A stretch of 32,879 bases of DNA from Conidiobolus incongruus B7586 (taxonomy: Eukaryota), in NCBI GenBank assembly GCA_000697335.1, contig JNEM01012004.1:1-32879 (forward strand), read 5' to 3'. Under the pieces are notes generated by a model. The model did not search any database, was not told the DNA's origin, and worked only from the letters and a program-made list of their open reading frames with translations. Positions 1,366-31,291 of this stretch are shown here, piece by piece. Every line of letters begins with the position of its first letter. Within the stretch, counting starts at the first letter, position 1. The translations under genes were made by a program, and so were the position numbers.

Positions 1366-2362
1366 ATGTTAAGTATATAAACCATTTTATTTTATTTATC
1401 TTTAGCTGCTATATTTTATATTTGGATTTCCCTTCAATATCTAATATTAGTGTCAAAAAATTGTAGCAAATTATTGACACTGCAGATGAGAGAATTCTTA
1501 CAAGGATGGTCAAAAGACATAATACAAAATCTTGATGACTCTCCTCCTATAAAACTAGATAGACCGACCATAATTAAGATCCCTTTTTTAGAAAGCGATA
1601 AATATGATCTAGAATCACCAATTCGACCATATTACTGCACTTCAATGGGTTCCTGTACTTGAATTATTTTCTAAAGTAATTTCAAAGGTTTATATTTTTA
1701 AAATTCTTCAGAGAGATTAATTATTAAAGTACCCATATTATGATGATCTAAGAAACTATTAAGGGAATAATTGTTTGGCATAGAACTAGTATCCATCTAC
1801 CCATCTGTATGAGAGATTTTTTTGGATTGGTTTCATTTGAAAGATGAATAAAAATATTCTAGTTCATAGTTATTATATTACTTGAAATATCTGTCAATCC
1901 GAAATAAATTCATATTTGATTCATATAATTCAAGGACGATTATTATAGTGCTTATGAAATAATAATTACTGGTCAGAGTTTGAGAAGATCCACTTCTATA
2001 TTTCATGATGCTAAAGAAGATAGATACATTCTCGCAACTGGAAATGAGGTTGAATTATTCTATTATCATAGTACTAGAGCCGTTAATAGAATTCTGTTTA
2101 TCATATTATCCGTCTACATATTCCAGTGATCGGATATGAGAAAAGAAATGATCTATTCAGTGATATTAATCCTAGGTAGATATGTTACATCCAGATATCT
2201 GGTGATATACACTTATCATTCTCTTCAACATTCTCCGAGCCGCCTATATTATTTGACCAAGGTATTGATCAAGATCTAAATCACAATAGCAAGATAGTTT
2301 TTTTCCTCATTCCTTTCATTCATTTTTGCTGCTTTAATAAACATATTCTTCCACATTGATGA
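1366..2362 (+). pseudogene. Decayed class 3 lipase paralog of 5567-6559
   Basis: Manual translation across stops and frameshifts is collinear with the intact lipase: EFLQGW..PPIKLD vs EFPEGW..PPEKLD (the 1450-1662 ORF is this piece); IKGIIVWHR..MRDF vs IKEIVVSHR..LRDF; IIITGQSLRR vs VIITGHSLGG; ATGNEVELFYYHSTR vs ATGHDVELFVYHSPR; FNKHILPH* vs FNKPAIPMC*. Overall span ~997 nt vs 993 nt. Multiple in-frame stops. Confidence 0.88.
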
Positions 2363-5566: not shown

Positions 5567-6559
5567 ATGAAAATATTGAACTATTTATTGCTAACTACCT
5601 GTATCTCTGGTCAAATCATTTCCGATTGGATAGAGAAACTTCCAGTTAAATTAGGCCACAAAATAGAGTTGTTTGATTTATTCGAATTTCCCGAAGGTTG
5701 GATCAACGATTTGGCCAAGAATGATATATACTATCCCCCCGAGAAATTGGATGTAGAGACTAATGTTATTGTTCCTTCCATGGATCGCATTAAATTTCAC
5801 TTTAACTCTGCTTTGCAATCTTATTGCCATATTTCTCCTGACCTTTATATGAATTGCTTATTTGGAAAATGTCGCGGCTTCAAAATGTTGAAATCTTTTG
5901 ATCATTTATACTATGGAAGTATGGTAGTAATTGGAGTATATGAAGATATCAAGGAAATTGTTGTTTCTCACCGTGGTAGCTCTAACTTGCAAAATTGGTT
6001 AAGAGACTTTAGCTTTGGTTTTGTGGAATTGACAGGATTTAATCAAGATATCAAAATTCATAATGGTTTTTATAGTACTTATAAGAGTTATGCTCCTAAA
6101 GTAAACGAACATCTCTTCCAGATCTTGAAAGATCCCAAATACCAAGGATACAAGGTTATTATTACTGGTCATAGTTTGGGAGGTGGTACTGCTACTTTGC
6201 ATGCTGCTGACCAGACCCAAAACATCCGCGCTACTGGTCATGATGTTGAATTGTTTGTCTATCATAGCCCAAGAGTTGGAAACAAAGCATTCGTCGACCA
6301 TATGGTTAGCTTAAACATTCCAATGGCCAGATATACTAATAGAGGAGATATCGTTAGTCAAGTTCCCTTCCGTCATCAGGGTTATGTTCACATCCCCGTA
6401 GAAGTTCATTTACCCTATTCCACCTTATTTACTGCTGAGCCCATGGTTTGTTCTCAAAAGTACGACGAAGACCCTAAATGCCAATGGAGAGATCGTATCT
6501 ATCTCAATCCCATTGATCATATAAATGGCTTTAATAAGCCTGCAATTCCTATGTGTTAA
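5567..6559 (+). CDS. Secreted class 3 lipase (alpha/beta hydrolase, fungal Lipase_3 type)
   Basis: Intact 330-aa ORF with a hydrophobic N-terminal signal. Motifs: SHRGS..NWLRD oxyanion/lid segment, IHNGF, GHSLGG nucleophile elbow, SPRVGN, TNRGDIV (catalytic Asp), GYVH, C-terminal DH (catalytic His). Confidence 0.95.
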   Translation: MKILNYLLLTTCISGQIISDWIEKLPVKLGHKIELFDLFEFPEGWINDLAKNDIYYPPEKLDVETNVIVPSMDRIKFHFNSALQSYCHISPDLYMNCLFGKCRGFKMLKSFDHLYYGSMVVIGVYEDIKEIVVSHRGSSNLQNWLRDFSFGFVELTGFNQDIKIHNGFYSTYKSYAPKVNEHLFQILKDPKYQGYKVIITGHSLGGGTATLHAADQTQNIRATGHDVELFVYHSPRVGNKAFVDHMVSLNIPMARYTNRGDIVSQVPFRHQGYVHIPVEVHLPYSTLFTAEPMVCSQKYDEDPKCQWRDRIYLNPIDHINGFNKPAIPMC

Positions 6560-10298: not shown

Positions 10299-11255
10299 CT
10301 ATTCTTTAATACCTAAAAATCGATAAATTTGATCCCGAATACACTTATTAACTGTAATAGTAACTAAAGGAGACAGAAACTTGTGAACTAGTATTAAACA
10401 AACAGATATTGTGTCAACCAAGGGCGATCTGGATTTATTTCCCACCATCTCTTGGATCATCACCCATCCAAAGGGAATGAAACAGGTTAAAAAGATAGTA
10501 CAGTATAACACCGATTTAAGGGCTACTTGTGCTACTTTAATCCATGAACTATCAATATGAAGACCGTTTTTAGATAATTTGACACTCGAAACATTGCTCA
10601 AATGATTAGAAGACATGGATGACATTTCTGAAATCACTTTGCCAAAGTAGCTGGTAATTGAAAAGTAGAAAAAAATAGTTAAAAAAGTACAACTGGAAAT
10701 TGATACTATTGTAAGAATAAAATAACCAAGAATAATCTTATCTTCTGGGATGTACTTTAAAAAGCAATAACCACCAGAAGGCATCACATTAAATTTACCT
10801 AGCAACGCTATGCTAAGTCCAACACCAAATGGTATTCCCCATTGACCATATTGCATAATAATCATGGATTTTGGTGACCAAGTTTTTCTGCCTACAATAG
10901 TTTGATACCTCCAAAAAGCACATAATGTAGCTGAGAATAACCAAGTCATTAAGCAAGTAGTTGAAACCATTCCTTCGATTTGACACATCGTATAAGATAA
11001 ATACTCTTGATTACTCCAAAATTTAATTGGAAACCATATCAAACACCATAATGCATAAATAACATCAATAATAACAATTTGTGAAATAATTAAATTGTCG
11101 GGAGTTCTCATTTTTGATGATCCAAAGATACTAAGAAGAATAAAAATACTAGGTATTAAAGTCAAAATAGCGCTAAACACAAATGCCGATCCAGCGATGA
11201 GCGCTTGCCAACTATTGGGAGCTTCAACTCCCGACACTTGGAAGAGTGGATTCAT
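10299..11255 (-). CDS. Rhodopsin-like (class A) G protein-coupled receptor, 7TM
   Basis: Intact 318-aa ORF with seven hydrophobic segments. Features: TM2 Asp (IIDV), Cys at the top of TM3 (MCQIEG), WRY at the DRY position, TM4 W..P, ECL2 PSGGYC (likely disulfide partner), TM6 CFIP (CWxP-like), TM7 SPLVT (NPxxY-like), and a helix-8-like NKCIR..I segment. Confidence 0.88.
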   Translation of the reverse strand: MNPLFQVSGVEAPNSWQALIAGSAFVFSAILTLIPSIFILLSIFGSSKMRTPDNLIISQIVIIDVIYALWCLIWFPIKFWSNQEYLSYTMCQIEGMVSTTCLMTWLFSATLCAFWRYQTIVGRKTWSPKSMIIMQYGQWGIPFGVGLSIALLGKFNVMPSGGYCFLKYIPEDKIILGYFILTIVSISSCTFLTIFFYFSITSYFGKVISEMSSMSSNHLSNVSSVKLSKNGLHIDSSWIKVAQVALKSVLYCTIFLTCFIPFGWVMIQEMVGNKSRSPLVDTISVCLILVHKFLSPLVTITVNKCIRDQIYRFLGIKE

Positions 11256-14745: not shown

Positions 14746-14790
14746 TATAAAAGACTTCGTTCGATGATTCAATTTTAATTATCAGTTGAT
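14746..14790 (+). promoter_or_regulatory. Core promoter of array gene 1 (TATA + initiator-like ATCAGTT)
   Basis: TATAAAAG at 14746 (-72 from ATG) and ATCAGTTG at 14781. The same arrangement recurs at genes 2, 3, 6 and 7. Confidence 0.5.
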
Positions 14791-14817: not shown

Positions 14818-15249
14818 ATGAAATTCTTAATCGCTTCAATCTTCGTTTCCTTCACATTGGCTGCTCCATCATTCCAAAACATCAGTGGTGGTGATTCAGT
14901 GCTTGCAAGACGTGGTAACCAAATCGGTCATGGCGACGAAGGTGGTCATGTAAGTGATGAATCTCATTCTACATCAGTCAACGCTGTTGGCGATACTATG
15001 TTCTCAGGTACTGGTAACAGATTTAGTGCTGTTACCAATGTATTAACAGGATCCACTCGTGATTTCTTCCAACGTAGAGGTCTCCTTCAAGGTATTGGTA
15101 TTATCGGTAATGGCAATTCTAACCAAGATAGTTCTAAAAATGACAATGTTATCTCTGGAGGCAACCAACAATTATCTGGTCAGCATATTAGCAATAATCC
15201 AGTTGCTAATATTGCTGGAATGACTACTAATGAATCCATCACTGCTTAG
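14818..15249 (+). CDS. Small secreted RR-processed bipartite precursor, copy 1 (143 aa)
   Basis: The true start is the ATG at 14818 (MKFL, as in paralogs); 14812 is GTG. Signal 15 aa, propeptide APSFQ..VLARR 17 aa, module A 55 aa ending FFQRR, module B 56 aa (GLLQGIGIIGNG..GNQQLSGQ). Confidence 0.9.
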   Translation: MKFLIASIFVSFTLAAPSFQNISGGDSVLARRGNQIGHGDEGGHVSDESHSTSVNAVGDTMFSGTGNRFSAVTNVLTGSTRDFFQRRGLLQGIGIIGNGNSNQDSSKNDNVISGGNQQLSGQHISNNPVANIAGMTTNESITA

Positions 15250-15730
15250 ATTAAAAATAGATATTAGAAAATAAAAATCTCTTTAATATATTATAAACAG
15301 CGATCTTGAATAGAATATGAATTTTGTAGTTTATCGATACAGTAATTATTATTATTATTATTTTCATAATCATTCAGATTATAGAATATATTAGTTCAAA
15401 AGTAATGTTACCTTATTATAAATTTAATAAAATTCCAAATCTTCTAATAAATTTTTAATAAATTTATAATTTTAGAATTAGTACTCTATAAGTATAAAAC
15501 ATCTATGATATATTAAAAATAGAGAAATGGATAGTAGTAAATAATATATTTGAAACTAATTTGAAGGATATCTGAGGGATTCAAGATCCTTTCTTATAAT
15601 AGTGAAATATTTCTAGTTTCATTAAATTAACAATTCCAACTGCTTTTAAAAGTTGAAACTGTATCAGAAATTTAGATACACACTCCATTTTACTTTATGT
15701 TCGAGCTCAATTCAAAGCTTAGAACTTTGA

Positions 15731-15782
15731 AAAATATAATATTTGAAAATTCAAAATATAATATTTAAAGATTCAAAATATA
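15731..15782. repeat. Short tandem duplication, 22-bp unit x ~2.4
   Basis: aaaatataatatttgaaaattc / aaaatataatatttaaagattc / aaaatata. Confidence 0.5.
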
Positions 15783-16878
15783 TAAATTTAAATTATTATT
15801 AATAGCAAATTGATTATAACTAAATACAATATTGCTTAGCATATTCCATAAAACCTAAAAAAATATCATCATTGAGGTATTTATGCTGATAATCAAACTT
15901 CAATAACGAAATATATCAATAGTTATTAGGGTCGTGTTTTATATTTGAGTGTACACTATCTTCACTCAGCATTATACTTAATGAGGTTACATGTATTTAA
16001 TTTACAAGAAATGATTTGTTCAAATTTTAATAATCAAAAAAAATATATACCAATGAAATCAATTTAAAGAATAATCTTGGTTAAATAAAAACACTGTTGA
16101 AGGCTTTAACTTATTTCAAATGCTATTTACAAAAAACTTAAGATAAAATAAATTACTAATATGGGTTCATATTATTAAAAAATTGAATTATTAACAATAT
16201 AATTAAATAAAATGTTTTTATAAATCCAATATATCATTGAAGTTCAATTTAGAATGAAAAAGGAAATTTTGAAAAGAGTTTTTTAATTTATTGTATAAAT
16301 AGAAAAATAAAAAGAATAAACAATAATATTTTATAATAATATTTATTAAAAAATTCTTCAAGTAAAGTTATTAATATTATAAAGATAATGAAAATTTTGT
16401 AACTTGATAAATTGGTTTTGATTTTCATTTTGATAATCTATTTCATTTAAATATAAATATCAGAAAATCAGTATAATGATTGAAAAAACATAATTAATAA
16501 ACCACTAGAGTATAATATAAATTATATGAAACCTGTGAGATGTTTATTAGAAATTCATTTATTTTAAAATAGTAACATGATTTTATTAACCAGTAATTGT
16601 AACATAGAATTCAACGTCATATATGTAGATATTTGAAAATTTGATATGATTGATGATCAATTTTTAAACATCTCAAATGAAATATTTCAATTTGGATTCA
16701 CATTGCTGAAGAATAACAGTGAATATAAAATACAGAGATGTTACAATGTATTTATTACCAGACGACTTTAATACACTTTGATTGTTTGAATATAGTTTGA
16801 ATTATTGATATAAAAAGATAGTGAAAGAATATACTGAATCATCAATTAATACAATAGTTTAAATAATATACTAAAGAT

Positions 16879-17328
16879 ATGAAATTCTTAGCTGCTTCAT
16901 TCTTGATATCCGTCACATTAGCTGCTCCAGCATTCCAAAATATCAGCGGTGGTGACTCAGTGCTCGCAAGACGTGGTAATCAAGTTGGTCATGGAGGTGA
17001 AGGTGGACACGTGAGCGACGAATCTAATACAACATCAGTAAACAGTCGTGGCGATAGTTTATTCTCAGGTACCGGAAATTCTTTAAGTGCTGTGAAAAGT
17101 ATCTTTGGTAAATCTGCTTCAGGCTTTTTGAGTCGTAGAGATTTCCTGCAAGGTCTACAGGCTCTACAAGGTATTGGTGTTTTGGGTAATGGTGCCTCAA
17201 ATTCCGATAGCTCTGAAGCCAACAATGTAGTTGCACATGGTAATCAGCAATTATCAGGCCAGAATATCAGTAACTCACCGGTTGCTACTATTGGAGGCTT
17301 GGATACTAACCATTCGATTACCGCTTAG
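16879..17328 (+). CDS. Small secreted RR-processed bipartite precursor, copy 2 (149 aa)
   Basis: Same layout (15+17+55+62 aa) with sites VLARR and FLSRR. TATAAAAA at 16809 (-70). Module B starts with an LQG-LQA-LQG triplication. Confidence 0.9.
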   Translation: MKFLAASFLISVTLAAPAFQNISGGDSVLARRGNQVGHGGEGGHVSDESNTTSVNSRGDSLFSGTGNSLSAVKSIFGKSASGFLSRRDFLQGLQALQGIGVLGNGASNSDSSEANNVVAHGNQQLSGQNISNSPVATIGGLDTNHSITA

Positions 17329-17474
17329 AAAACAGAGTTCAAAGTAAATAAAATTATTAGTTAATTTGTATACATTTATAAAATTATTACAATTTTTTCA
17401 CATTAATTTTAATAATTATAAACAACAAAAGTATTGAATATTTAGACACCAATCTAATTTATAGGGAATAACAT

Positions 17475-17890
17475 TGTCAATCACTCAAGTAACTATCATT
17501 ACCACATTGAAAAAGAAATCACATTGGAGGTTCCTCATTTCACTACCTGTTTGACTCCCACACTTTCTGCCAGTAAGTCATTTCTATTAGCAAAAACAAA
17601 CAGTGAAAATTAATATAAAACTGTCATGAGCAAACTAATAAACATCATTTAATTAACTTCATCCCAAATGTATTCGGTTTCTAAGTTCTTATAATACTCA
17701 CAAAAGTGTTGAGTTGTGACTAGTGTGAGATATTTACTTTATTCAAAGAACCCAATTATTGTAAGTCATTTTCATCTTATTTGGTTAATACCATTAATTT
17801 TCTCTTACTCTATGGTAGCCTATAGCTTACCACTGTTGATTTCCTCTTTCAGCTTTAATAGTCTATTTGTTCCTACATTTATGGTTGTCA
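17475..17890 (+). mobile_element. LTR-like dispersed repeat, copy 1 (CpG-depleted)
   Basis: Collinear over ~415 bp with 22948-23368 (shared TGTCAATCACTCAAG, CACATTGG, AACTAATAAACAT, CACAAAAGT, TTACCACTG, AGTCTATTT). It starts TG and ends GTCA, has TATAAAA (17614) then AATAAA (17637), and is preceded by purine-rich GGGAATA. No clean target-site duplication. Confidence 0.6.
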
Positions 17891-20184
17891 CAATATTGGT
17901 ATAATATTATTTAATACTATTCAGTTTTATACTAATATTATTTTAAATATTTCTTAGTTTATAAATCAAAATATTATTACTTAAAGTAATTGTACTATAA
18001 TAATAAGCTGGTATTTTAAATAATTTTGAATTTTTGGTATATTATATAATTTGTAAAAATATTGAAATATATTTACTATAATTTACAAAAGATTATTTTA
18101 ATATTTGAATGATTTGTCACAATTTAAAAAAATATTTAATAAATATACAACACAATTTTGGTTAGTATTATAAATATGACAATAAAATTAAGATAGCATA
18201 CATCAATCCCTGTTTAATTATTATTAGATTAATATAGTTATCCTATGTAAATATGGAATATTATACAGGAATGTTTCTTTTTATATCTTGAAAGTTATTC
18301 TCAAATTTTTTTAATGAACAATTGATTCAAAAAATGTGTCTAAATTAAATAAAATATGAATTAAAAGTTTATGAAAAATAAATTTTTTGAAAATTTTTGT
18401 TTAATAAAAAACTATTTAAAAATATGAATAAAGTAAATATAATAGTTTAAATAATAAAAAATTATGAATAAATCTCTTAATCTTTTTTGAATTTCATATT
18501 ATTATTTTAAATTTTGAATATTGACTATAAAGTTTAAAAATATATTCAACTATAATAGCGTATACTATGTTAGTTTCAAATTCTTAAAATTATATGATAT
18601 TATACGCAGATATGTGATTGATTAAGAAATTTATTATCAGATTTCTCTGTATAACTATATTTGTTATTATATAAATATAACAAATATTAAATATTATATT
18701 TTGGTACATCCTATATAATTGAGTATATATATATTTAGTCAGTAATTTGAAATTATATAATATATCAAATATATTTCAATATATCGCTGTCTATTATAAA
18801 TACATAAAATTTTTTTCCATCGTTTATATTTTTAACAGTATATTGAGATTACAAAAATTTTTAACAATTGGCATATTTTTTTAAAGTTTTCACTATAAAA
18901 ATCAAGCTAACATTAAATCATAATATAATAATTATTTACTTATTCTAGTGTTTAAACTATATATTTAATTAAACAATATATATTAAGATTTTATTATTTT
19001 AATATAAAATTTTGATTTTTATTTTATATTAAATTATAATATCAAAATGATTTATCAAAGTGATTGAATAATATAATATTAAAATCCATTTTATATTGAC
19101 AACTATAATAATTTTATCGAAAGAGATTATTAGTAATATTTTTTGTTAATATTTATCTTCAAATTACTTTTCTATGATATTTAATGGAATAATTGATATT
19201 AATTTTACCTACATTGTGATTTTAAATTTTGGTCTAATTATTAAAAATAATCTTCTAAAATAGTATAAAGATTGAAGAAATTTTTGAAATTATAATAAAT
19301 TATATTTCAAATTGAGAATCTATAAATATTAATGAATATTCATATTCTAAAATTGATTCAACTCAAATGTTAATGTTAAAAAAATAATCGCTAATTAATT
19401 TCCATAAAAATTTGCATGGTTTATTACATGTTCACTTAATATGATAAAAATTCTCTACATCACTTTAGAATATAATCTTGTTTATCATTATAAATCAATT
19501 CAACTTGAATAATTATAAAATAGCAATTTATTTCATTATTTATCGATACATTAAATATGAAATCGTATGAAAATATTCTTAAATATTTAATTCACCACCT
19601 TGAGAGTAAATAACCTGAAAAATTTAATTTTTAATATATTACTTTTGTATTTAAAACAATTTGTAATTTATGTGATAATTTTAAGCATATATAGCCTTAA
19701 AATTAATAAATTTAATGGATTTTTTTCAAATTACTAGAAATTAAGATTTTAGTTTTATAAATAGAGAATATTAAAAATTTAAAAAAAAATAAATTATTTT
19801 TCTATTGCTCTAATGGAACTATAAATTTATTAATATACACAAATTTTATTATTTTTGAAAAATTAATTAATAAGAAATTATCTTCCTGATATAAAGCAAT
19901 GATGATCCTATTACATTTAGAAATTCAATTTTATTGTATCAAATATTGATTGATCAACATTTCAATCCATTCAGATCATCTATAAATCATTTCATATTTG
20001 AATCATTTCAAATATTTAATTTACTTGAATTAAAAATTCATTATATTAAATTGTTACTGTTTGATAAATTTTTTTAATACAACTTTGAGTTTTACAACTG
20101 GATTTAAATATTCATATAAAAGAGTTATTCATCAAATATGGTCAACTTATCAATTGATCTAATTTCTAATTAATCTTAGAAAAA

Positions 20185-20508
20185 ATGAAATTCTTATTTG
20201 CTTTATTCACTTCAATCACTTTAGCTGCTCCTTCATTTCAAAATATTAGCCGTGGTAATTCAATAATTGCAGGACCTATTGGATCTATTGGCAGAGATGG
20301 TTTCAGCAGAGATGGCTTCTTCGTTCGTAGACAAATCCTACAAGGAATCGGTATCTTGGGTAATGGTGGCCAGAACACCGATAAATCTCAAACCAACAAT
20401 GTTGTGGCTCACGGTAATCAACAATTGTCAGGTCAAAATATCAATAATTCACCTGTTGCTAATATTGGTGGACTGGATGCTAATCATTCAATTAATTTTA
20501 AACAATAG
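20185..20508 (+). CDS. Small secreted precursor, copy 3, module-B-only derivative (107 aa)
   Basis: Signal and APSFQNIS are retained. The first RR and module A are replaced by a short linker (GPIGSIGRDGFSRDG), followed by FFVRR and an intact module B. TATAAAAG at 20115 (-70). Confidence 0.85.
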   Translation: MKFLFALFTSITLAAPSFQNISRGNSIIAGPIGSIGRDGFSRDGFFVRRQILQGIGILGNGGQNTDKSQTNNVVAHGNQQLSGQNINNSPVANIGGLDANHSINFKQ

Positions 20509-20837
20509 AATTAAATATTACAATAAAATGGTTAAAATTATTCTAAACTAACATTTATTTTGCATAGGTCAACTATATAACCTATATGACAAAGCTTAAT
20601 ATAAATAAAAGTGATAATCCATATTAACAATATTAATACTAAAAAATATTATATATATTCCAAATATTATTTGAAAAATGAAACTTTCAATGAATAGCTT
20701 TAATAAATCTTGTATAAATATTATTATTGACAGTTATTAAAAATTTGGTTATTAATAAGAGTATACAAAAAAATAGTATTTTGATAATAATACAAAAACA
20801 CAAAAAGAATTGATAAAAATTGAAGAGATAACTTAAT

Positions 20838-20910
20838 CGCCCAATGTGGGGCTCGAACCCACGACCCTCAGATTAAAAGTCTGATGCTCTACCGACTGAG
20901 CTAACCGGGC
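20838..20910 (-). tRNA. tRNA-Lys-TTT: tRNA-Lys (anticodon UUU), 73 nt, intronless
   Basis: Reverse complement reads GCCCGGTTAGCTCAGTCGGTAGAGCATCAGACTTTTAATCTGAGGGTCGTGGGTTCGAGCCCCACATTGGGCG. It forms a full cloverleaf with A box, B box (GGTTCGAGCC) and anticodon loop CT-TTT-AA. No encoded CCA. A T5 Pol III terminator lies about 20 nt downstream (20815-20819). Confidence 0.97.
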
Positions 20911-21721
20911 ATAAAATCAGCAAATATTTAAATAACATATCTCACTTAGTAAAATATTTTTCATTTAATCTTTCATTTTTTTTTCAAATTAACTATTTAA
21001 TTTCGTATAGATTTTCTTAATTTAATATAGATTTTCCAATTTTTATCTACTTTCAAATCTCACCTAATAACTATTTTTTTAATTATTAATACTCATTTCA
21101 TCTATTTTTTTTCAATATAAATTTTATTATTTATTATGTAATTATAATTCGAAATCACATTATATATTCAACTATATCTTTTTTATTCTAATGCTTATTC
21201 TCAACTATTTTTTTGGTATAGAGTTATATCTCTTATATTGGTTTTACCAATTAATGTATTAATATATATTATTTCTTTAATAAGTAACCTACATACATAT
21301 ATTAATAATATTACAATATTCGAAATTTTCATTTTTAATATTCAAACAATATGAAGTTTTTATCATTGTTTTATCTATAGCATTATTTAATACGCTATAA
21401 TTTACATATTTTAGAATTCAAATACAGTTATATTTAAATATATATTTTTTAAAATATCAATATCAAAATAATAGATTTAAGAGAAAGAAATCAAAGATTA
21501 AGCTTGAATATGATATTAACCTATTACAAAAATTATAAATTCACCAAAATTTATGAGAGAATAATCAAATTATGTATTTTGAAATAATTTTACTAATTGA
21601 AATTGATTTGATACAAAATTAAGTTTTACAAATAATTTGAGAGTTTTATATATAATACTAATCAAAGTTGATCAATCTAAATATTAAATTAATCTCTTGC
21701 ATGTTAAATTTAAAATCAATA

Positions 21722-22048
21722 ATGAAATTTCATTACATAACTTTATTCATATTAAGCACTTTTGCCACTCCAATATTCCATGTGACCAGTGGTGATAAGT
21801 CTTTATTATCTCGACGTGGGTACACATTTGGTCAAGGCGATACCAGCTATAGTGTCAGCGACTCATCGCACAACGTTGTTATCAACTCAATAAATGACGG
21901 CTACATGAGCGGCGAAAAGAATAAATTTAACTCAATAATTAATATTAATGAATCTACTGGTGATTTTTTAATCCGTAGAGGCTTTGTACAAGGGGTAGGA
22001 ATAATAGGAAATGCTGCTTCCAATATGGATGGCTTTAGCCTCTTTTAA
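21722..22048 (+). pseudogene. Small secreted precursor, copy 4, C-terminally truncated (108 aa; module A intact, module B cut after 22 aa)
   Basis: The true start is the ATG at 21722 (MKFH). Sites LLSRR and FLIRR are present. It is closest to copy 5. The stop arises in a T-run (22043-22046); removing one T restores FNIF, aligning to LNVF of copy 5, but GNQQLSG and the rest are absent. It may still be expressed as an A-only product. Confidence 0.7.
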
Positions 22049-22947
22049 TATTTTCTATCTAAAATTTTCCAAAATTTATTGAAATTTGAATTTATTTCAT
22101 TAAAGATAAATAAAATGATTAAAGTTTAATCGATATATATAATTGTAAAATAATTATCCAAGTTCAATTAATATATTTAATCGATTCTATTGAATTTTTA
22201 AATATTTTTCCATTTACTTTTTCAAATATAAATTCAAATTTTACAATATTGATAATTAACTACTGATTGGATATGAGCAAGGATATTCAGTTAGAGCAAT
22301 ATACAAAGTAATATAATAAATAAACCTTGAAAATGAGCATAACAACTGCAAAATCATTTGATTAGTTACTTTGGAAATTGAATGTATAGATAAATACTTT
22401 AATGTACAATTTATATAAAGCATTGTATATTAATTGATTAGTATATGACTCAACTAACATCAAATACAAAAAATATGTTATTACTTTCTTAATGATTATT
22501 TTAGTTACATTTTAATTGGACTTGTAAAATATTAGTTTAATTTTTCAAAATTTCATTAAAATAGTACTAAATCTGAAAAACTATGTATCTTGATATAGCC
22601 GTTGTTTATTATAAACATATTCAATGATTCAATCATTTAGATATTAAATTATTTTCCATATTCTTTTATTTTAGAATCATGAAATATTTGAAATTATAAA
22701 AATTCGTAACTAGGAAAATAGTAAAATATTTAATACATTAATCTTGAATTTTTCTATTTAAATTATTGAGTTTATTCAAACACCCATTGTTTTAATATTT
22801 TTTATTTTTATATTTTTATCTATTTTTTATATTTTAAATAATTGCCTTCAAATATTTTTAACATATTTCCAATATCAAAATTTATGATAAAAGAAAATAT
22901 TTTTTGCTATAATAAATTATATTGAACAAAATGATGGGAAATAACCT

Positions 22948-23368
22948 TGTCAATCACTCAAGACACTGTGATTGCCATACTGTATCGAGAAGTCACATTG
23001 GGAACACTCAGTTTTCTGAACCTGGTGGCTGTGTTCCTTTTTGCCACTGAGACATTCCTATCCATAAAAATCAACAATGAAAGCTAATATAAGATTATCA
23101 TGAATGAACTAATAAACATATCTCTTTTATCTTCATAGCAAAAGTATTCAGTCTCTAAGTTTTTCTCGTAGCACCCACAAAAGTATCGAATCGTGACGAG
23201 CGTGAGATTATTACTTTACACGAGGAACCCAAATTACAGTAAGCCGTTTGCACCTGATTTGGTGAACCCCATCAATTTCCCGTAACTTTGTGGTAATCTG
23301 TCGTTTACCACTGGTGATTCCCCGCTGAAGCACTAAAAGTCTATTTCCTCCCGCAATCCCGTTCGTCA
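22948..23368 (+). mobile_element. LTR-like dispersed repeat, copy 2 (CpG-rich, less decayed)
   Basis: Homologous to 17475-17890. TG...CA ends, TATAAG (23088) then AATAAA (23111), preceded by GGGAAATA. No reading frame examined was conserved between the copies. Confidence 0.6.
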
Positions 23369-23957
23369 AAAATTTTCAGTAGATGATTGATAATTGACAT
23401 CATTACTTATTATTTAAATATGATTGTTTGAGATAACGTTATTTATCATTATGATTCAATAAATGAGATATAAGTATTAAAATATATGAATAAGTAATAT
23501 AAACAAATTTAAAAGATATATTTTAAATTGTAAATTTCATTTATGATTTGATAAAGTTTTTTAGTTCAATATATTACTTTCAAATTGAGAATATATTTTG
23601 ATTAAAATATTAGTATTAAATTTCTAAAATCATAGGATATATTTTAATACTGTTAAATTTTTGATATTTTAATATAACTAAGCCCGAGTCAAGTATTACT
23701 GAAGTTTCAATAGTTTATCAATTTAAAATATCATTAAAATTGACCTTATTAATAAAAATGAGTATGAAAATTTGTAGGAGTATTTGAAAATTTCAATTTA
23801 CACAATTTGAAATGTTAATACCATTTCAAATTCGTTTGATACGAGGTTAAAGTTTGGAATATAATTTAAATGTTTTAATATAAAAAGAAAATAGAATACA
23901 TTATATATACATACACAATTAATTAATCAATAATTCAAAATATTGTGATTATCAATT

Positions 23958-24398
23958 ATGAAATTCTATATTCCAGCTTGCCTTGTTTCAATTACCTTAG
24001 CCACTCCGATTCTTCAAGTAACCACTAACGATAGTTCGTTACTATCTCGACGTGGGAATACATTCGGTCAAGGAGATTCTGGAGGTAGTGTCAGCGATTC
24101 ATCGCACAACGTTGCTATCAGCTCAATAGGGGATAGTTTCATGAGCGGCGAAAACAATACATTCAACCCTATCACAAATATTATTCATGGACCTGCGAAC
24201 GATTTTTTTACACGTAGAAGTTTTTTAGAAGGAGTTGGAATATTAGGAAATGCTGGTGCTAATACTGATAGCTCAAAAACTCTCAATGTATTTACTAAGG
24301 GGAATCAGCAGCTAACAGGTCAGAATATTCAAAGTAATCCAAGTTTAACAACTGGTGGTTTGAACTCGAATGGATCTATTTTAAGAGAATTTAATTAA
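23958..24398 (+). CDS. Small secreted RR-processed bipartite precursor, copy 5 (146 aa, divergent subfamily)
   Basis: Layout 15+17+55+59 aa with sites LLSRR and FFTRR. Motifs GVGILGN and GNQQLTGQ. TATAAAAA at 23879. Confidence 0.9.
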   Translation: MKFYIPACLVSITLATPILQVTTNDSSLLSRRGNTFGQGDSGGSVSDSSHNVAISSIGDSFMSGENNTFNPITNIIHGPANDFFTRRSFLEGVGILGNAGANTDSSKTLNVFTKGNQQLTGQNIQSNPSLTTGGLNSNGSILREFN

Positions 24399-25674
24399 TT
24401 TTAATAATACAACATTAAAAATACCCCAATTCAATACAATACTTGGAGTTATGAAATTTATTATAAAAATTTAATTTCAACTTTAAAATTTAAAAAATCA
24501 TATTATTTAATAATACTTTCTGATAAATATGTAAAACTTATGTTTTAATACCATAAGTTTAGTTTTATATGACAATTTAATTCAATTTAATTGAAGGAAT
24601 ATAATTCTGATAATATTTTTGAAATTTGATTGAAACTTCACTATTTAATAAAGTATTTAAATTATAAACTAAGTTCAAAAATACAATAAATTCAGTAGCA
24701 TATAAATTATCTTCATAATGAATATGAGCGATAGCATATATAATTAATTGAACCTTTAATCAGATTTCAATGGTTAAATTTTGAATAACTGTAGAAAATT
24801 TTATATTTAATTAGTTTGAATAATAATGTTTATATTTTAATATATATTTGGTGTTAGCATATTTATCTCAATATTTCAATGAATTTCAATTTTATTTTAG
24901 AATATTCGAGACTGATCAAATCTTTTGTATATAAAGAAATATATATTTCAAATAATATCAAACTAATAATATATCTATATTTAACAAACTAGAAAAAGCA
25001 TTAAAAAATTACAAATTTTAATATAATATGCTAAAAATATACACAGCAATTTCATCAACAAAATTCATTATTATTTTTTAAATATTAAAAAGTTTTAATA
25101 TTGTAAATTTCTTACTAATATCACCTTGAATTATTGATTCTTAAAATTTTTAAATTGATTATTTCTAATAAAGGAATGTTATATGTATACCAACTTTAAA
25201 GTTGGTTTAATTTATATATACAATGAGATTTTGCAAAAAAAAATAATATCAAAAATAAATATTCTTAATTATGATTGATTTATATAAAATATTTAACATT
25301 TTATTTATGTTTAAAATCAGAATTGAATCAATAATATCGTTTGACAATGCCATATTATAAATTAATATCCAAAATAATAAATTTCTCTATTAAAATTATC
25401 ATTATTTATTAATTTGAAACGAAGTCACAATTAAATTTTAATAGATTTTCAGGAATCAAATTACAGAATGTTGAATTTGGAATAAAATTTTGTTTCAGAA
25501 AAAATTGATCTGAAATTGAGAAATTTTAATTAATCATGTATCATATTTGAGATCCATTTTGTATCAAGGGAAAATTAATATGATGATAGCTATTATCAAA
25601 GGGTATAAAAAGATTGTGGTGCAATGTAATATTAATATCATCAAATATTGAGTTAATAATCAAATCAAAATAAA

Positions 25675-26109
25675 ATGAAATTCTTACTCGTTGCATTATT
25701 CACCTCTGCTACTTTAGCTGCCCCTGCCTTCCAAGTCATTAGCAATGGTGGAAGCGTTTTAGCTCGTCGTGGTAACCAAGTTGGAGGAGGAGACCGTGGA
25801 GGTACAGTGCATGACGAATCAAAATCAGTAGCTGTTGATGCCCATGGGGATTCAATGTTCTCGGGAACGGGTAACATTTTAACATCAGTAAACAATGTGT
25901 TCGGTGGAGATACCAAAGATGCTCTATTGTCTCGTAGAGGTCTCCTTCAAGGTATTGGTATTATCGGTAATGGTAATTCTAACCAAGATAGCTCTAAGAA
26001 TGACAACGTCATCTCTGGAGGCGACCAACAATTATCTGGTCAGCATATTAGCAATAATCCAGTCTTAACTGTTGGCGGTACTACAACTGACCAACATATT
26101 TCAGGCTAA
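25675..26109 (+). CDS. Small secreted RR-processed bipartite precursor, copy 6 (144 aa)
   Basis: Layout 15+17+56+56 aa with sites VLARR and LLSRR. TATAAAAA at 25604 (-71). Confidence 0.9.
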   Translation: MKFLLVALFTSATLAAPAFQVISNGGSVLARRGNQVGGGDRGGTVHDESKSVAVDAHGDSMFSGTGNILTSVNNVFGGDTKDALLSRRGLLQGIGIIGNGNSNQDSSKNDNVISGGDQQLSGQHISNNPVLTVGGTTTDQHISG

Positions 26110-27065
26110 TAGTGGAATCGTATCACATCAAATTTTTTCTTAGTCAAACATTTGTAACATATAAAAACCATTAATAAAAATCAATCAATATTGTCATAAA
26201 TTTCCCTACTTTAGCCTAATTTTATAATAAAATTAATAATTAAATGGTAGAATATATCTAATACATTCTATAGAGAATTTTTTAAATGTATGATATTTAT
26301 GAAATAGTTTAAATATAAAATAAACTATTCAGAGATAAGTTTAATGACACATAAGGATACAAATATAGTTTATTGATTATATAATTTTCTATTACTACTT
26401 AAGGTATTTTATAATTGCAAAATATTTAATAAACAATCAGAGAAAATTAATACTAAATATATTATAGAACAGCGATATTATTTATCTTGATTTTTTACAA
26501 AAACCTATTGAAAGAGCAAATTGAACTTGATGGATATGGGGTATAATAGATGAAATAAAAAATATTTTTTACTTTTACATTTCAAGAAAATAAATATAAT
26601 AATTAAAATAAATTGATATATATATATTAATGCCAAATAATGACAGGATAGTATTAATATTTTCATTTTTGTGATATTAAAAACGAAATGAAATAAATAA
26701 CTAATATTGGAGTGATGTTTGTAATTTGCTATATATCAGATCATCAAATTATTAATTCTACATTTGCTAATATCTACAATTAAAAATAAACAACCTCGAG
26801 AATAAATCGAACCTTCATATATATTATCGAGGCTTAGACTAAAAGAAATGTTTGATTTGAAGATCATCAGCATGAATTAATTATAAATCAATTCTATAAG
26901 TAAATATTTATTGAATAAGTTGATGGCCATTTGCTTCAAATTTTGGGGCTAATAAAAAAATATGTTAATTTAAAGAGTTTGAAATTGATATAAATGGACA
27001 GATGGAGTTCATCAGTATAAAATATCAATTATTTTGATAATAAAATACATAAATATTGTTTAAAA

Positions 27066-27500
27066 ATGAAATTCTTATTGGTTACTTTATTCACCTCCAT
27101 TACTTTAGCCGCTCCTGCCTTCCAAGTCATTAGTAATGGTGGAAGCGTTTTAGCTCGTCGTGGTAACCAAGTTGGAGGAGGAGATCGAGGTGGTGAAGTG
27201 AAGGATCAATCATCATCTGTAGCTGTTGACGCCCATGGGGATTCAATGTTCTCCGGAGCTGGTAACGTCTTAAACTCTGTAAATAATATTTTCGGTGGGG
27301 ATGCCAAAGATGCTCTATTATCTCGTAGAGGTCTCCTTCAAGGTATTGGTATCATCGGTAATGGTAATTCTAACCAAGATAGCTCTAAGAATGACAACGT
27401 CATCTCTGGAGGCAACCAACAATTATCTGGTCAGAACATTAGCAACAATCCAGTATTAACTGTTGGTGGTACTAAAACTGATCAATCAATAACCGCTTAA
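27066..27500 (+). CDS. Small secreted RR-processed bipartite precursor, copy 7 (144 aa)
   Basis: Layout 15+17+56+56 aa. TATAAAT at 26989 and ATCAATT at 27024. Differs from copy 8 by one residue. Confidence 0.92.
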   Translation: MKFLLVTLFTSITLAAPAFQVISNGGSVLARRGNQVGGGDRGGEVKDQSSSVAVDAHGDSMFSGAGNVLNSVNNIFGGDAKDALLSRRGLLQGIGIIGNGNSNQDSSKNDNVISGGNQQLSGQNISNNPVLTVGGTKTDQSITA

Positions 27501-30298
27501 AATCATTTTCATTATTCAAAAAATTCATTAACGAACTTATTTCAATAAAATAATAAAAGTATATTTGTTTTTCAATCTTTTATTGCCATCATATATTTAT
27601 ATTAATGCTATATAATATATCTCTATACTATTCGTTGAATTATTAAAATGCAATAATTAATTTCAAATCATTTTCTATGATAATTTAATGGTTTTGTGAA
27701 TATATTACCCTATTAAACATATATATTATGGTGCGAATTTAAAATAAGTGGCAGGTTTAAATGTAAATACACAATATCTCTGATGAATTTAACAATTATA
27801 TAACTTCTTATATATCTGAGAGCTTGGTTTAAAAAATTTTTCTAACAAATAATTTACACATATAAAATTAATATATTAATATTAACTTGATCTAGGTTGA
27901 GAAGAAATATCATTAAATATAACATTATCCAAATCATCTTTAAACAAGTATTTTAAATTCAGTAATAATCTTTGGTATACAAATACTATTTAATAAAAAT
28001 TAATAAAGAATTAAACTTTAAAATTATATAAATTAATATTTGTCCTTTGTATAATATAATAATATAATCAACCTATTTGTTAAATTCTTGATATATATAA
28101 TATCCCTAATATATAAATTTAACAAATTGAAGGTGTTTGATTCAGTTAAATTCTCAAAATATTTTTTCTTGACTCTTATTTTATAATGATAACTAGCCCT
28201 TTATACTTTCTATATAATATTTTCAATATATAGTGATTAATATTTTATAATTTAATATATTATATATTTCTTATAATAACATAAGTATACCGAATAAAAC
28301 AATTTATCATAATAAATAGAATGTATTTTATATTAATATACTAACCTAATAAATAAGAATTAATAATATATAACTTTCAAAATTATTTTTGATAAAACCT
28401 TGAAACTTGTATTGCATAAACTTTGCATTTGTTTTTAAATCCAATAATATTTAATTTTCATTTATTTATAAAAAACGATTTTTCTATTTAAAATTATATA
28501 TTTTATAATATTCTTAATATAATAATAACTATAATAAATGAAGCTATTCAATTTTAAAACTAAACATTATCATGAATCTTGAATAATATTCAGTTCATTT
28601 AATTATTATTTGATAATTGAGAAAACTTCAATATAACTTTGAAAAAATTATTTTAAAAATCATATAATTCATATTTTTGAAATTTTATAATTTTTGTCCT
28701 AATATTTCTTAACCATTGTCTTTATATTAATAAATTTATTATAATATATTAAACTTATATTTGATTAATATCTGAATTATCAATTTTTTTTCTTATAAAT
28801 AAAGAAAATATAATCAAAACTAAAAAAGTTTATAACTTTTTTTATTTAATAATAGATATATAATTATACAAATAGTTATCTTTGAATATTTTTATTAAAT
28901 ATTATATTACTATAAGGAATATAGAATAATTAAATCATTATTATCCAAAAATAAATATGTTTTTGCTTAAATTTAATTTTTTGAGTTATTATAATTATTC
29001 AAAATTTAAAACTTATTTTCAGAATAATATATATAAGTATATACCATATTTGATTAAATAAAAGTTTATAAGATATATATTATTCAATAATTATATCATC
29101 AAAAACTAATATTAGTTTAATGTTTTTTATTTTAATTCAATCAAAACTTTGATGGTTTTGAAAATATCAAATATTTAATTATATTTATATATTAACTTTT
29201 ATTTGATAAATATCTGATTTAATATGCATCCATATATTACTTATTCATAATTTATAATTATTTGATAATATAGCAAAATATCTTAATTTGGCATATAACC
29301 AATTTGGAATCAGTTGAAAAAATATTAATATCCACAAATAATAATTAGTTCAAAAGAATATATATTGGATAAACTTAACTAAAATGATATCAATTTAATC
29401 TTTTCTAATTCTCAACTCATAATATTGATTAATAATAAATTTATCTCAATGTTTAAATTCATATATAATCATAACAAAGACCAATATACCAGTTATTTAC
29501 CCTATCTGTTGTTTAATTCATTATATCCTATCAGATTTATTGAACTAAATTAGACAAATAATCACCAAACTAAAGTATTAAAATATATTCATTTAATAAA
29601 TTCAATTAAATTTATATTTATTTTGATAATTTTTAATCAAATAAATATTTATATATTGGGAATAAATTGAGCAATATTAAATAATAAATTAAATTAATTG
29701 TATTTATAATACACTTATTAATTCTTATATATGATAAATATTAACTTTCAATAAGTCTATATGAACAATATTGATCCCTACGATCAAAATGATAATTTTC
29801 TATATAATAAATTGGAAATATAAATTAAAATTTATAAAGTTTAGCAATTTAAAAATATATACTGGCGGCATTTTACTCGAATTTTCATTTTATTATATTA
29901 TTCAAAACTTAAATATATAGAAATGAATATTTTCAATTATTATGGAAATATTTAATTCTATAATAAAATTATCAGATATTTTAATTAGTTATTCCGTTAT
30001 TTTAGGCTCATTGTATAATTCTACAATAGTTAAAAATTAGAGTATTAAGATATCTAATTAAAGTAGACAATTTTAATTAAATTCAATTATTTTTTTATAA
30101 TCTAAGATAATTTTATCCATTGAAATTTATCAAAAATGAAGAAATTTAATATCATTTAATTGTTACCAATCAATCTGTAAGGCTGATTGTAGTTTCAAAA
30201 TTGCTTATTGAGAGTTAACATATATATATAATGAGCGTTGTTATTTTTCTATTAATTATTGATACTTGGAACTATAATATATTATACACTATATTAAA

Positions 30299-30733
30299 AT
30301 GAAATTTTTATTAATTACTTTATTCACCTCCATTACTTTAGCCGCTCCTGCCTTCCAAGTCATTAGTAATGGTGGAAGCGTTTTAGCTCGTCGTGGTAAC
30401 CAAGTTGGAGGAGGAGATCGAGGTGGTGAAGTGAAGGATCAATCATCATCTGTAGCTGTTGACGCCCATGGGGATTCAATGTTCTCCGGAGCTGGTAACG
30501 TCTTAAACTCTGTAAATAATATTTTCGGTGGGGATGCCAAAGATGCTCTATTATCTCGTAGAGGTCTCCTTCAAGGTATTGGTATCATCGGTAATGGTAA
30601 TTCTAACCAAGATAGCTCTAAGAATGACAACGTCATCTCTGGAGGCAACCAACAATTATCTGGTCAGAACATTAGCAACAATCCAGTATTAACTGTTGGT
30701 GGTACTAAAACTGATCAATCGATTACCGCTTAA
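30299..30733 (+). CDS. Small secreted RR-processed bipartite precursor, copy 8 (144 aa)
   Basis: Differs from copy 7 at 5 nucleotides, all at the CDS extremes. A TATATA run lies at ~30221-30231. Confidence 0.92.
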   Translation: MKFLLITLFTSITLAAPAFQVISNGGSVLARRGNQVGGGDRGGEVKDQSSSVAVDAHGDSMFSGAGNVLNSVNNIFGGDAKDALLSRRGLLQGIGIIGNGNSNQDSSKNDNVISGGNQQLSGQNISNNPVLTVGGTKTDQSITA

Positions 30734-31291
30734 ACAATTATCAAAAATAAATTTTTTGGATCATTCATTTACATTAATATCACTAAAAATCACATTAAAA
30801 CCAATTTAACTTTCAATTATTATTTAAATGTATTAATATATATTTAAAGCTTAACAAATTTTGACTAAACATTGTTTATTGTAAAATTAAGTATAAAATT
30901 AAAAACGATCAATATTATTCAAATTGAATATATTACTTATAAAAAGTTGTGTGGTTTAATAGAGCTATGATGTGACAAATATTTATTATTTGTAACTCCC
31001 TATCATTTTCATATCCAACATTGATTAGCAGGTTTAAATTGGAATTATGATTTCGATTGATTTAAAAATGATTGAAACAAAGATAACTATTGAGGTTGTC
31101 AAATAATTTGATAAATTTGTATAGTATTCCACGAGAATCTTTATTATTGAAAAAATCTTATTCTAATATTAGTAAATATAAATTTAATATGTTTATTATT
31201 GAAAAGAACTGTTTATATTTGAAAATTTGGGGTGGAAATTATTGATCAAATAGCGATAACATAATATAGTCTAGATCAATTATAATTGATA

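What the first reader, a model, noticed from the sequence alone, without database searches (positions are those of the whole stretch)
14818..30733. Eight-gene tandem array of secreted precursors predicted to release two Cys-free Gly/Asn/Ser-rich peptides: candidate undescribed functional-amyloid or repellent system
Seen in sequence: eight co-oriented intronless paralogs, each with its own TATA. The layout is signal (..TLA|AP), 17-aa propeptide, hydrophobic-hydrophobic-x-RR, module A (~55 aa), hydrophobic-hydrophobic-x-RR, module B (~56 aa). Mature modules have no Cys or Trp, almost no Pro, and alternate short hydrophobic strands with GN/SG/GD turns (QGIGIIGNG, NVVAHGNQQLSGQ, FSGTGN). Established knowledge: Kex2 cleaves after dibasic sites; Ustilago maydis Rep1 is a Kex2-processed precursor of amyloid-forming repellent peptides that substitute for hydrophobins; Pseudomonas FapC repeats carry GNQQ and curli repeats carry GxGN. 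Inference: this is a high-dosage, two-component self-assembling surface protein system (spore coat, adhesion or hydrophobicity) in a lineage where classical 8-Cys hydrophobins are not expected. I do not recognise the family.
Basis: partly seen in the sequence, partly recalled or inferred. Interest (0 to 1): 0.88.

Follow-up and report, generated by a model that had tools for sequence, protein, structure and literature searches.

The report
Fungal peptides shared with Streptomyces bacteria
Eight neighbouring fungal genes encode precursors likely cut into small 55-residue peptides of an unnamed family whose members also occur, up to 75% identical, as single, likely secreted proteins in a few Streptomyces bacteria, and which are predicted to stack into amyloid-like surface fibres.

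Summary
The array is real: eight co-oriented intronless paralogs. Only six have the full signal–pro–RR–A–RR–B layout; gene 3 lacks A and gene 4 stops 22 residues into B. The closest relatives are in Conidiobolus coronatus. A and B are not two different components but two variants of one ~55-residue module (HHalign 89.7%). The same module occurs as 9–11 RR-separated repeats in Conidiobolus, singly in Mortierellaceae and agarics, and as stand-alone signal-peptide proteins in about 1% of Streptomyces genomes. The bacterial proteins end, and mostly begin, where the fungal RR sites lie, which independently supports Kex2-type cutting. Bacterial and fungal modules are intermixed in trees (bacterial monophyly rejected, AU p=0.0002). 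Cross-kingdom pairs reach 75–95% identity, implying repeated gene exchange; the direction is unresolved. The family matches no Pfam, NCBIfam or PDB sequence and is not chaplin, rodlin, FapC or hydrophobin. An alternating N-x-D-x-S-x-N pattern and a low-confidence AlphaFold β-solenoid (pLDDT 53) favour a cross-β surface polymer, which is untested. Verdict: an undescribed cross-kingdom peptide family, probably Rep1-like in working principle. Obligate two-component assembly is not supported.

The parts
14818..15249 (+). Gene 1, 143 aa: leader, propeptide, RR, module A (14914-15072), RR, module B (15079-15246). Mosaic: leader and propeptide closest to gene 2, B closest to genes 6-8
   Evidence: pS for B 0.38 vs g7 and 0.72 vs g2; pS for leader+pro 0.32 vs g2 and 0.64 vs g7
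16879..17328 (+). Gene 2, 149 aa: A (16975-17133) and B (17140-17325); B is 42/56 identical to a Streptomyces stand-alone protein (P0011)
20185..20508 (+). Gene 3, 107 aa: B-only precursor, single RR, B at 20332-20505; the same architecture occurs in P0009 (109 aa)
21701..22048 (+). Gene 4, 115 aa (probable start at 21722): A (21818-21973), RR, 22-aa stub of B, then stop; an A-only gene or a decaying copy of gene 5
   Evidence: 75% nt identity to gene 5; no TATAAA; no B remainder downstream
23958..24398 (+). Gene 5, 146 aa: A (24054-24212) and B (24219-24395); the most divergent full copy
25675..26109 (+). Gene 6, 144 aa: A (25771-25932) and B (25939-26106)
27066..27500 (+). Gene 7, 144 aa: A (27162-27323) and B (27330-27497)
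30299..30733 (+). Gene 8, 144 aa: A (30395-30556) and B (30563-30730); 98.9% nt identical to gene 7 over the coding sequence only, with unlike flanks (likely gene conversion)
   Evidence: self-blastn 27063-27501 vs 30296-30734
14746..14752 (+). TATAAAA box at -72 of gene 1; like boxes at -70 to -79 in genes 2, 3, 5, 6 and 7

Best explanation
The array encodes likely secreted precursors that a Kex2-type protease would cut at RR into ~55-residue acidic-to-neutral Gly/Asn/Ser peptides of one homologous family, shared with Streptomyces through inferred repeated gene transfer, and these peptides likely stack, one peptide per layer, into a cross-beta (functional-amyloid-like) polymer on spore or hyphal surfaces. 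Steps: (1) SHOWN: one module family with A, B and repeat (C, D) variants. (2) SHOWN: bacterial members are signal peptide plus one module, with ends matching the fungal RR sites. (3) INFERRED: Sec/signal peptidase in bacteria, and signal peptidase plus Kex2 (with Kex1 trimming of RR; enzymology recalled) in fungi, release the same mature unit. (4) PREDICTED, low confidence: each unit forms one rung of a parallel beta-solenoid, with N-x-D-x-S-x-N facing one side as a polar ladder and Gly turns. (5) INFERRED: fungal polyproteins and tandem arrays raise dosage and allow mixed (A/B) stacking, but one variant is enough. (6) INFERRED, weakest: the polymer coats or glues aerial structures, as Rep1 peptides do.
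For: A vs B profile match: probability 89.7, score 33.5 against a maximum of 13.6 in 40 column-shuffled controls; A vs C 97.4 and C vs D 97.6. RR/KR is at both boundaries in 10 of 10 two-module homologues (P0001-8, P0013, P0018) and separates nearly all repeats of P0012/P0033/P0030/P0034. Of 20 actinomycete singles, 17 end within 2 residues of the fungal module end. Among the 12 A/C/D types, whose fungal end is as a rule an internal RR, 10 end within 1 residue and 8 start within 1 residue of the post-RR position (signal cuts by an AxA rule). In 46 non-redundant modules, entropy alternates along the predicted strand: N 1.48, D 0.30, S 0.15, N 1.51 bits versus 3.19, 2.96, 2.30, 3.54, 3.13 at the positions between and around them, and one Gly is invariant. 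AlphaFold on the 9-repeat relative gives the same strand pattern in every repeat, pTM 0.57. Its nearest folds are parallel beta-solenoids: SufBD-like 9h78 Z 18.7 (rmsd 3.0, 238 aligned) and curli CsgA 8c50 Z 16.0 (rmsd 8.9, 220 aligned). Composition is G 16.5, N 13.1, S 13.0%; 0 of 78 modules are net positive. Rep1 is the precedent for Kex2-cut water-repellent peptides (PMC7329392, passage). A rodlet layer is reported on Conidiobolus obscurus conidia (PMC3364958, passage).
Against: No experiment and no expression data. Both models are low confidence: pLDDT 44 and no fold for the window's own precursor, and 53.5 for the repeat relative, with 221 of 530 residues under 50 and only the best of five models above 50. 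Foldseek found nothing at E<=0.001. Beta-solenoid matches are common for repeats and show no function. The modelled chain is uncleaved, so it does not show that free peptides stack. In Streptomyces the gene is rare, single-copy and in accessory DNA, which suits an ecological cargo gene better than a bulk coat protein. An invariant Asp in an in-register stack would need charge compensation. Many modules carry N-glycosylation sequons (10 of 14 window modules), which could hinder stacking in the fungus.
Confidence: 0.55

Rival explanations
1. Secreted interaction peptides (antagonist, effector or masking agent against competitors, grazers or hosts) that act as monomers or small oligomers; the array is a diversified arsenal.
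For: Rare, single-copy genes in accessory DNA of Streptomyces: next to an integrase and AbiJ/Shedu defence genes (L001), a prophage-like serine recombinase and portal gene (L037), IS and HNH remnants (L003), an ATP-dependent ligase (L042), and a cofilin plus ricin-B lectin (L041). Repeated cross-kingdom exchange. Kex2-cut precursors include candidalysin and Rsp3 (PMC7329392 passage).
Against: 0 of 78 modules are cationic and there are no Cys or amphipathic helices. No conserved immunity, modification or transporter gene was seen beside the 9 bacterial loci inspected. This role does not exclude fibre formation.
Confidence: 0.2
2. The precursors or peptides fold as soluble beta-solenoid oligomers that bind a polysaccharide, lipid or metal through the invariant D-x-S and Gly, rather than forming open-ended fibres.
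For: Most top fold matches are soluble beta-helix proteins (SufBD, lyases, tailspikes). D (44/46) and S (45/46) are nearly invariant.
Against: A single 55-aa bacterial module cannot form a closed solenoid alone and has no capping element, so it would have to stack with copies of itself. RR sites between all repeats argue against an uncleaved domain.
Confidence: 0.1
3. Pheromone- or hormone-like ligands for the fungus's own GPCRs; Streptomyces carries mimics.
For: Kex2-cut repeat precursors include mating pheromones (PMC7329392). A 7tm_1 receptor gene lies 3.6 kb upstream, divergently oriented. High type-specific sequence conservation would suit a ligand or mimic.
Against: At ~55 aa the peptides are far longer than known fungal pheromones (recalled). 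C. coronatus has 125 GPCR genes (PMC12387763), so adjacency is expected by chance. The conserved residues alternate like a structural strand.
Confidence: 0.08
4. Ice-nucleating or ice-binding assemblies built from small subunits.
For: The window's modules weigh 5.2-6.2 kDa. Fusarium ice nucleators are unidentified ~5.3 kDa subunits, rich in Asx, Glx, Thr and Ser, that assemble by the hundred (PMC10655213 passages). Homologues occur in Mortierellaceae.
Against: No Fusarium protein was among the named hits. The Fusarium material has 19% Glx against 7.5% here. No regular TxT array is present. The size match may be coincidence.
Confidence: 0.06

Closest known systems
KEX2-processed repeat proteins (KEPs; Le Marquer 2019 PMC6339444, Umemura 2020 PMC7329392)
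   Same: Signal peptide plus modules separated by dibasic sites. The 9-repeat relative KXN69753.1 is listed in Umemura's Table S2 as type 0, with no HMM profile; I read type 0 as the paper's 'stand-alone, no homologs' class.
   Different: The window's genes have only two diverged modules. The C. coronatus two-module relatives KXN66050 and KXN66051, and the 11-repeat KXN72849, were not found in those supplements. Modules are long (~55 aa) and have bacterial stand-alone homologues; the word 'horizontal' does not occur in that paper's main text.
Ustilago maydis Rep1 repellent precursor
   Same: Kex2-cut, Cys-poor peptides from one precursor that act as water repellents for aerial hyphae (PMC7329392 passage): the best functional analogue.
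   Different: No Rep1-like protein or family was named among the hits. A direct profile comparison was not possible because no Rep1 sequence was in hand. Rep1's amyloid nature is recalled, not from a call.
Streptomyces chaplins (PF03777) and rodlins (NF041022)
   Same: Small Sec-secreted actinomycete proteins with ~55-aa self-assembling domains (function recalled).
   Different: No homology: HHalign scores 6.6-13.1, inside the shuffled range with maxima of 11.9-17.1. Chaplins have two Cys and occur in 5 of 5 genomes with 6-14 matches each; this family is in about 1% of genomes, single copy.
Pseudomonas FapC/FapB and curli CsgA functional amyloids
   Same: Asn/Gln/Gly/Ser-rich imperfect repeats, one repeat per cross-beta layer (PMC12392863 passages). 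CsgA 8c50 is among the top five fold matches.
   Different: 0 of 78 modules match the FapC motif or its tail, and none matches my curli-like pattern. There is no fap/csg operon. Units would be released as separate peptides rather than linked in one chain.
Fungal hydrophobins
   Same: Small secreted proteins proposed to coat aerial surfaces.
   Different: No Cys in any fungal mature module.

Membership tests
KEP (Kex2-processed repeat protein) | N-terminal secretion signal | tested here: met
   Hydrophobic 15-aa leader in 8 of 8 genes by inspection, helix 3-15 in the model; SignalP not available
KEP (Kex2-processed repeat protein) | Homologous modules separated by KR/RR sites | tested here: met
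   A~B homology; RR conserved; boundaries match bacterial singles
KEP (Kex2-processed repeat protein) | Several near-identical repeats, as the genome surveys detect them | tested here: not met
   Two modules of about 26% identity in the window's genes; met only by relatives P0012/P0033 and P0030/P0034; KXN66050/51 not in Umemura's tables
KEP (Kex2-processed repeat protein) | Cleavage by Kex2 in vivo | not testable with these tools
   needs peptidomics
Rep1-type repellent | Sequence homology to Rep1 repeats | not tested
   No Rep1 sequence was returned by any tool; no Pfam hit at E<=1
Rep1-type repellent | Peptides form insoluble amyloid and confer surface hydrophobicity | not testable with these tools
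   only a low-confidence beta-solenoid model of a relative
Chaplin (PF03777) | Chaplin domain with two Cys; profile match | tested here: not met
   No Pfam hit; HHalign against 20 chaplin domains within the shuffled range
Rodlin (NF041022) | Rodlin profile match | tested here: not met
   No NCBIfam hit; HHalign against 6 rodlins within the shuffled range
Hydrophobin | Eight-Cys pattern | tested here: not met
   No Cys in the window's mature modules; 1 Cys-bearing module among 78
FapC/FapB | Repeat motif GN-h-G-h-N-h-aaG-x-gNqQN (PMC12392863) | tested here: not met
   0 of 78 match the full motif or its tail
Curli CsgA | Parallel beta-solenoid of short repeats | tested here: inconclusive
   Z 16.0 but rmsd 8.9 over 220 residues, from a pLDDT-53 model; no sequence match
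Fungal RiPP precursor (dikaritin type) | DUF3328 or other modifying genes nearby; short core peptides | tested here: not met
   Only lipase, GPCR and tRNA genes in the 32.9 kb window; the DUF3328 column is empty for KXN69753; genes beyond the window not seen

The most novel reading that the evidence does not exclude
A previously unrecognised cross-kingdom functional-amyloid family: one ~55-residue beta-rung that soil Streptomyces export singly from mobile DNA and that fungi have repeatedly exchanged with them and rebuilt as Kex2 polyproteins and tandem arrays. It could be the missing rodlet/adhesive coat of Conidiobolus spores, and its sequence-specific variants could let bacterial and fungal fibres cross-seed or interfere with each other.
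Probability: 0.35. Interest if true: 0.9.

Novelty: new variant of a known kind. Interest (0 to 1): 0.76.

Why it matters
It gives a named, synthesisable candidate for the surface-coat protein of entomophthoralean fungi, where a rodlet layer has been reported (PMC3364958) and classical hydrophobins are scarce (1 of 6 Zoopagomycota proteomes in one survey). It links 'orphan' fungal KEPs to bacterial genes and shows the same mature unit delivered by two processing routes. It also documents repeated bacterium-fungus exchange of a non-enzymatic small protein at 75-95% identity, which is unusual whatever the function. The peptides are short and Cys-free, so amyloid, wetting, ice and antagonism assays are all immediately testable.

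Tried and rejected
Pfam and NCBIfam: no meaningful hit for any family member; the TAT-signal hit at E 0.037 on gene 2's SRRDFL is chance. PDB by sequence: 0 hits at E<=10 with A6, and only composition-level hits (E>=0.35) with A7. ESM Atlas: no usable hit for gene 7; later requests did not complete. The word-indexed 'longer' search found nothing, but the exhaustive profile search then found the long repeat proteins, so that blank was misleading. P0014 (1827 aa) was dropped from the 24 hits as a repeat-inflated false hit. Plasmid and phage collections: no match. Metagenome DNA scans: no confirmed locus, so the neighbourhoods of the unnamed fungal homologues were not seen. Sequencing runs: no RNA holder listed. 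The window's whole genome is not held. My recalled likeness to the rodlin N-terminus was tested and rejected. Direction of transfer: GC3 of bacterial modules (365/439 = 0.83) is not lower than that of their signal peptides (151/201 = 0.75), and both are below rodlin genes (0.95), so there is no trace of a recent AT-rich origin. Signal peptides co-segregate with B versus non-B modules (0 of 5000 permutations) but not with four types (1288 of 5000) (two signal cuts were misplaced by the rule and relatedness is not controlled). Direction is left open. Contamination was rejected as a general explanation: window GC3 is 0.25-0.34; bacterial copies have GC3 0.67-0.95, three of them on 7-9 Mb contigs; the Linnemannia and Panaeolus copies lie on 2.4 and 1.8 Mb contigs. 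It cannot be excluded for the Mortierella antarctica record (34 kb contig, DNA not seen). Literature: accession search of main texts 0 papers; Conidiobolus+HGT+Streptomyces 8 papers and Kex2+Streptomyces+amyloid 1 paper, none relevant by listing. Subscription papers and bioRxiv supplements were not searchable. Earlier scan notes: none on this genome or sequence; two notes on other peptide families were not used.


Full report
OBSERVATION. The window is AT-rich eukaryotic DNA (GC 14-31%). Between 14818 and 30733 lie eight single-exon + strand paralogs; tblastn shows no further copy. Six have leader(15)-propeptide(17, ending RR)-module A(53-54)-RR-module B(56-62). Gene 3 lacks A; the same B-only build is seen in homologue P0009. 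Gene 4 ends 22 residues into B. TATAAA sits at -82..-66 in 6 of 8 genes (background 8.5%, P about 9e-6), and modules show dN well below dS. Genes 7 and 8 are 98.9% identical over the coding sequence only, and gene 1 is a mosaic of a gene-2-like leader and a gene-6/7/8-like B. Modules are therefore likely exchanged within the array.

ORGANISM AND CLOSE RELATIVES. The closest named proteins are three adjacent Conidiobolus coronatus hypothetical proteins (KXN66050-52, 58-61% identical). I infer a Conidiobolus-like entomophthoralean fungus. The window's proteins checked (3 of 8) are not in the 15-billion collection. No Pfam or NCBIfam family and no PDB sequence matches.

ONE MODULE, MANY PACKAGES. 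An exhaustive profile search gave 24 proteins at E<=0.001 (one, P0014, dropped as a false hit), and a module-only search added four. They include C. coronatus-type polyproteins of 9 and 11 RR/KR-separated repeats (KXN69753, KXN72849 and metagenome twins), single-module proteins of Linnemannia elongata, Mortierella antarctica and Cyathus striatus, an RR-preceded A module in Panaeolus papilionaceus, and short proteins of ten named Streptomyces records and Yinghuangia. Three further Logan proteins (P0015, P0024, P0031) I class as actinomycete only from their signal peptides. Profile-profile comparison shows that A, B and the repeat types C and D are one family (A-B probability 89.7, score 33.5 vs a shuffled maximum of 13.6; A-C 97.4; B-C 92.2; C-D 97.6; B-D weak at 12.5). 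The core is G..N-x-D-x-S-x-N...G[DN]..SG; 74 of 78 modules carry D-x-S followed by the invariant Gly.

THE BACTERIAL PROTEINS CONFIRM THE CUT SITES. Each actinomycete member is a signal peptide plus one module. Seventeen of 20 end within two residues of the fungal module's end. Among the 12 A/C/D types, 10 end within one residue of where the fungal module ends (as a rule at an internal RR) and 8 begin within one residue of the post-RR position; three C types have 9-10 extra N-terminal residues (signal cuts by an AxA rule, two B cuts misplaced). The unit defined by RR in fungi is thus the unit defined by signal peptidase and stop codon in bacteria. Cleavage itself is not shown.

NOT TWO-COMPONENT. 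With the all-type profile, 4 of 401 Streptomyces-genus genomes matched, 6 of 401 family-level genomes (one is the centre genome, one a weak contig-edge fragment), and 2 of 401 class-level genomes (the centre and one weak match in a 493-aa frame that I do not count). Re-searching the ten hit genomes gave one match in each of the eight with a whole gene. The first-look filter limits sensitivity, so these are lower bounds. The loci lie in accessory DNA with no shared neighbour: integrase and AbiJ/Shedu genes, a prophage-like recombinase and portal, IS/HNH remnants, DNA ligase, LysE, GAF-ANTAR, cofilin and ricin-B lectin.

REPEATED EXCHANGE. In a tree of 78 modules (57 columns; 22 rows of near-duplicate polyproteins, one fused double and one deleted module left out), the actinomycete label needs 14 changes, at least 10 forced by well-supported branches, against a shuffled mean of 16.4. 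For 26 B modules (four long or identical rows left out), holding the 8 actinomycete rows together costs 119 log-likelihood units, p-AU 0.00016 (the taxonomic grouping was tested after the first tree was seen, and the alignment is short). Cross-kingdom pairs: gene 2 B/P0011 42/56; C. coronatus P0018/Streptomyces P0038 46/53; Mortierella P0020/P0025 53/56; Linnemannia P0017/locus L039 50/56. By comparison, the window's gene 7 B is 61-68% identical to the B modules of P0001-P0007. Synonymous sites between window and Streptomyces are saturated (pS 0.82-1.0), so each copy is ameliorated to its host. Several transfers are inferred; an ancient multi-type transfer with strong type-specific constraint is the alternative; direction is unresolved.

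STRUCTURE. AlphaFold failed on the window's own precursor (pLDDT 44). On the 9-repeat relative it gave a regular all-beta stack with the same pattern in every repeat, including a 14-residue strand over the N-x-D-x-S-x-N stretch (pLDDT 53.5, pTM 0.57, other models 28-49). Foldseek found nothing significant. VIA-align ranked SufBD-like solenoids (Z 16.5-18.7) and curli CsgA (Z 16.0, rmsd 8.9) first. Independently of the model, conservation alternates residue by residue along that strand, the pattern of an inward polar ladder like the conserved Asn/Gln network of FapC (PMC12392863, passages). A lone 55-residue bacterial module could form such a solenoid only by stacking on copies of itself; that is the main argument for a cross-beta polymer, and it is an inference.

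COMPARISON. Works like: probably Rep1 (Kex2-released surface peptides; PMC7329392 passages) and FapC/CsgA (one repeat per layer). Member of: KEPs in the broad sense. KXN69753 is listed there as type 0 with no profile, while KXN66050, KXN66051 and KXN72849 are not in the supplements (KXN66052 was not searched; 15 of 19 Conidiobolus rows displayed). Not chaplin or rodlin, not FapC by motif, not hydrophobin (no Cys). Papers seen: passages of PMC7329392, PMC10655213, PMC3364958, PMC12387763, PMC9026835, PMC12392863, PMC3684753 and bioRxiv 10.1101/2022.08.19.504535; supplement term searches of PMC7329392 and PMC6339444; others as listings only. I found no description of the family or of its bacterial link. 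Closed bioRxiv supplements and subscription papers could hold one.

VERDICT. Processing into ~55-aa peptides is likely (about 0.9), as is repeated fungus-Streptomyces exchange (about 0.85). A cross-beta surface polymer is the best mechanism (0.55), ahead of an interaction peptide (0.2), a soluble solenoid (0.1), a GPCR ligand (0.08) or ice activity (0.06). New family, new variant of a known kind; interest 0.76.

Noticed in passing
window 17461-17868 and 22934-23346: Two 71%-identical, stop-riddled relics between array genes, unrelated to the modules and not matched by the neighbouring GPCR or lipase; origin unknown.
   Followed up: partly
window 20837-20911 (-): tRNA-Lys(TTT) inside the array, between genes 3 and 4.
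   Followed up: no
window 10299-11255 (-): Intronless rhodopsin-like 7TM receptor gene (PF00001, E 1.9e-12), divergent from the array.
   Followed up: partly
window 5567-6559 (+) and 1465-2353 (+): Class 3 lipase (PF01764) and an upstream broken paralog in three tblastn pieces, 30-36% identical.
   Followed up: partly
L041:799-1200 (-) and 1798-2226 (-): A Streptomycetaceae genome carries a cofilin/ADF gene (PF00241, E 1e-27) and a ricin-B lectin gene flanking its module gene: possibly an island of eukaryote-derived or eukaryote-directed genes.
   Followed up: partly
L001:4144-7362 (-): AbiJ_NTD3-Shedu (SduA_C) fusion and a second unannotated 320-aa gene with an integrase nearby, upstream of the Streptomyces B gene.
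   Followed up: no
P0018 (C. coronatus KXN64556): Pairs an A module 87% identical to one Streptomyces protein with an internally deleted B module close to another Streptomyces/Linnemannia type: a second, independently assembled A-RR-B precursor.
   Followed up: partly
L042 and L044 (G408:C248 and C236, 9-98): Two contig-edge module fragments at the same coordinates in one genome, one beside an ATP-dependent DNA ligase gene; possibly a terminal repeat, as for P0022, annotated at both chromosome ends and on a plasmid.
   Followed up: no
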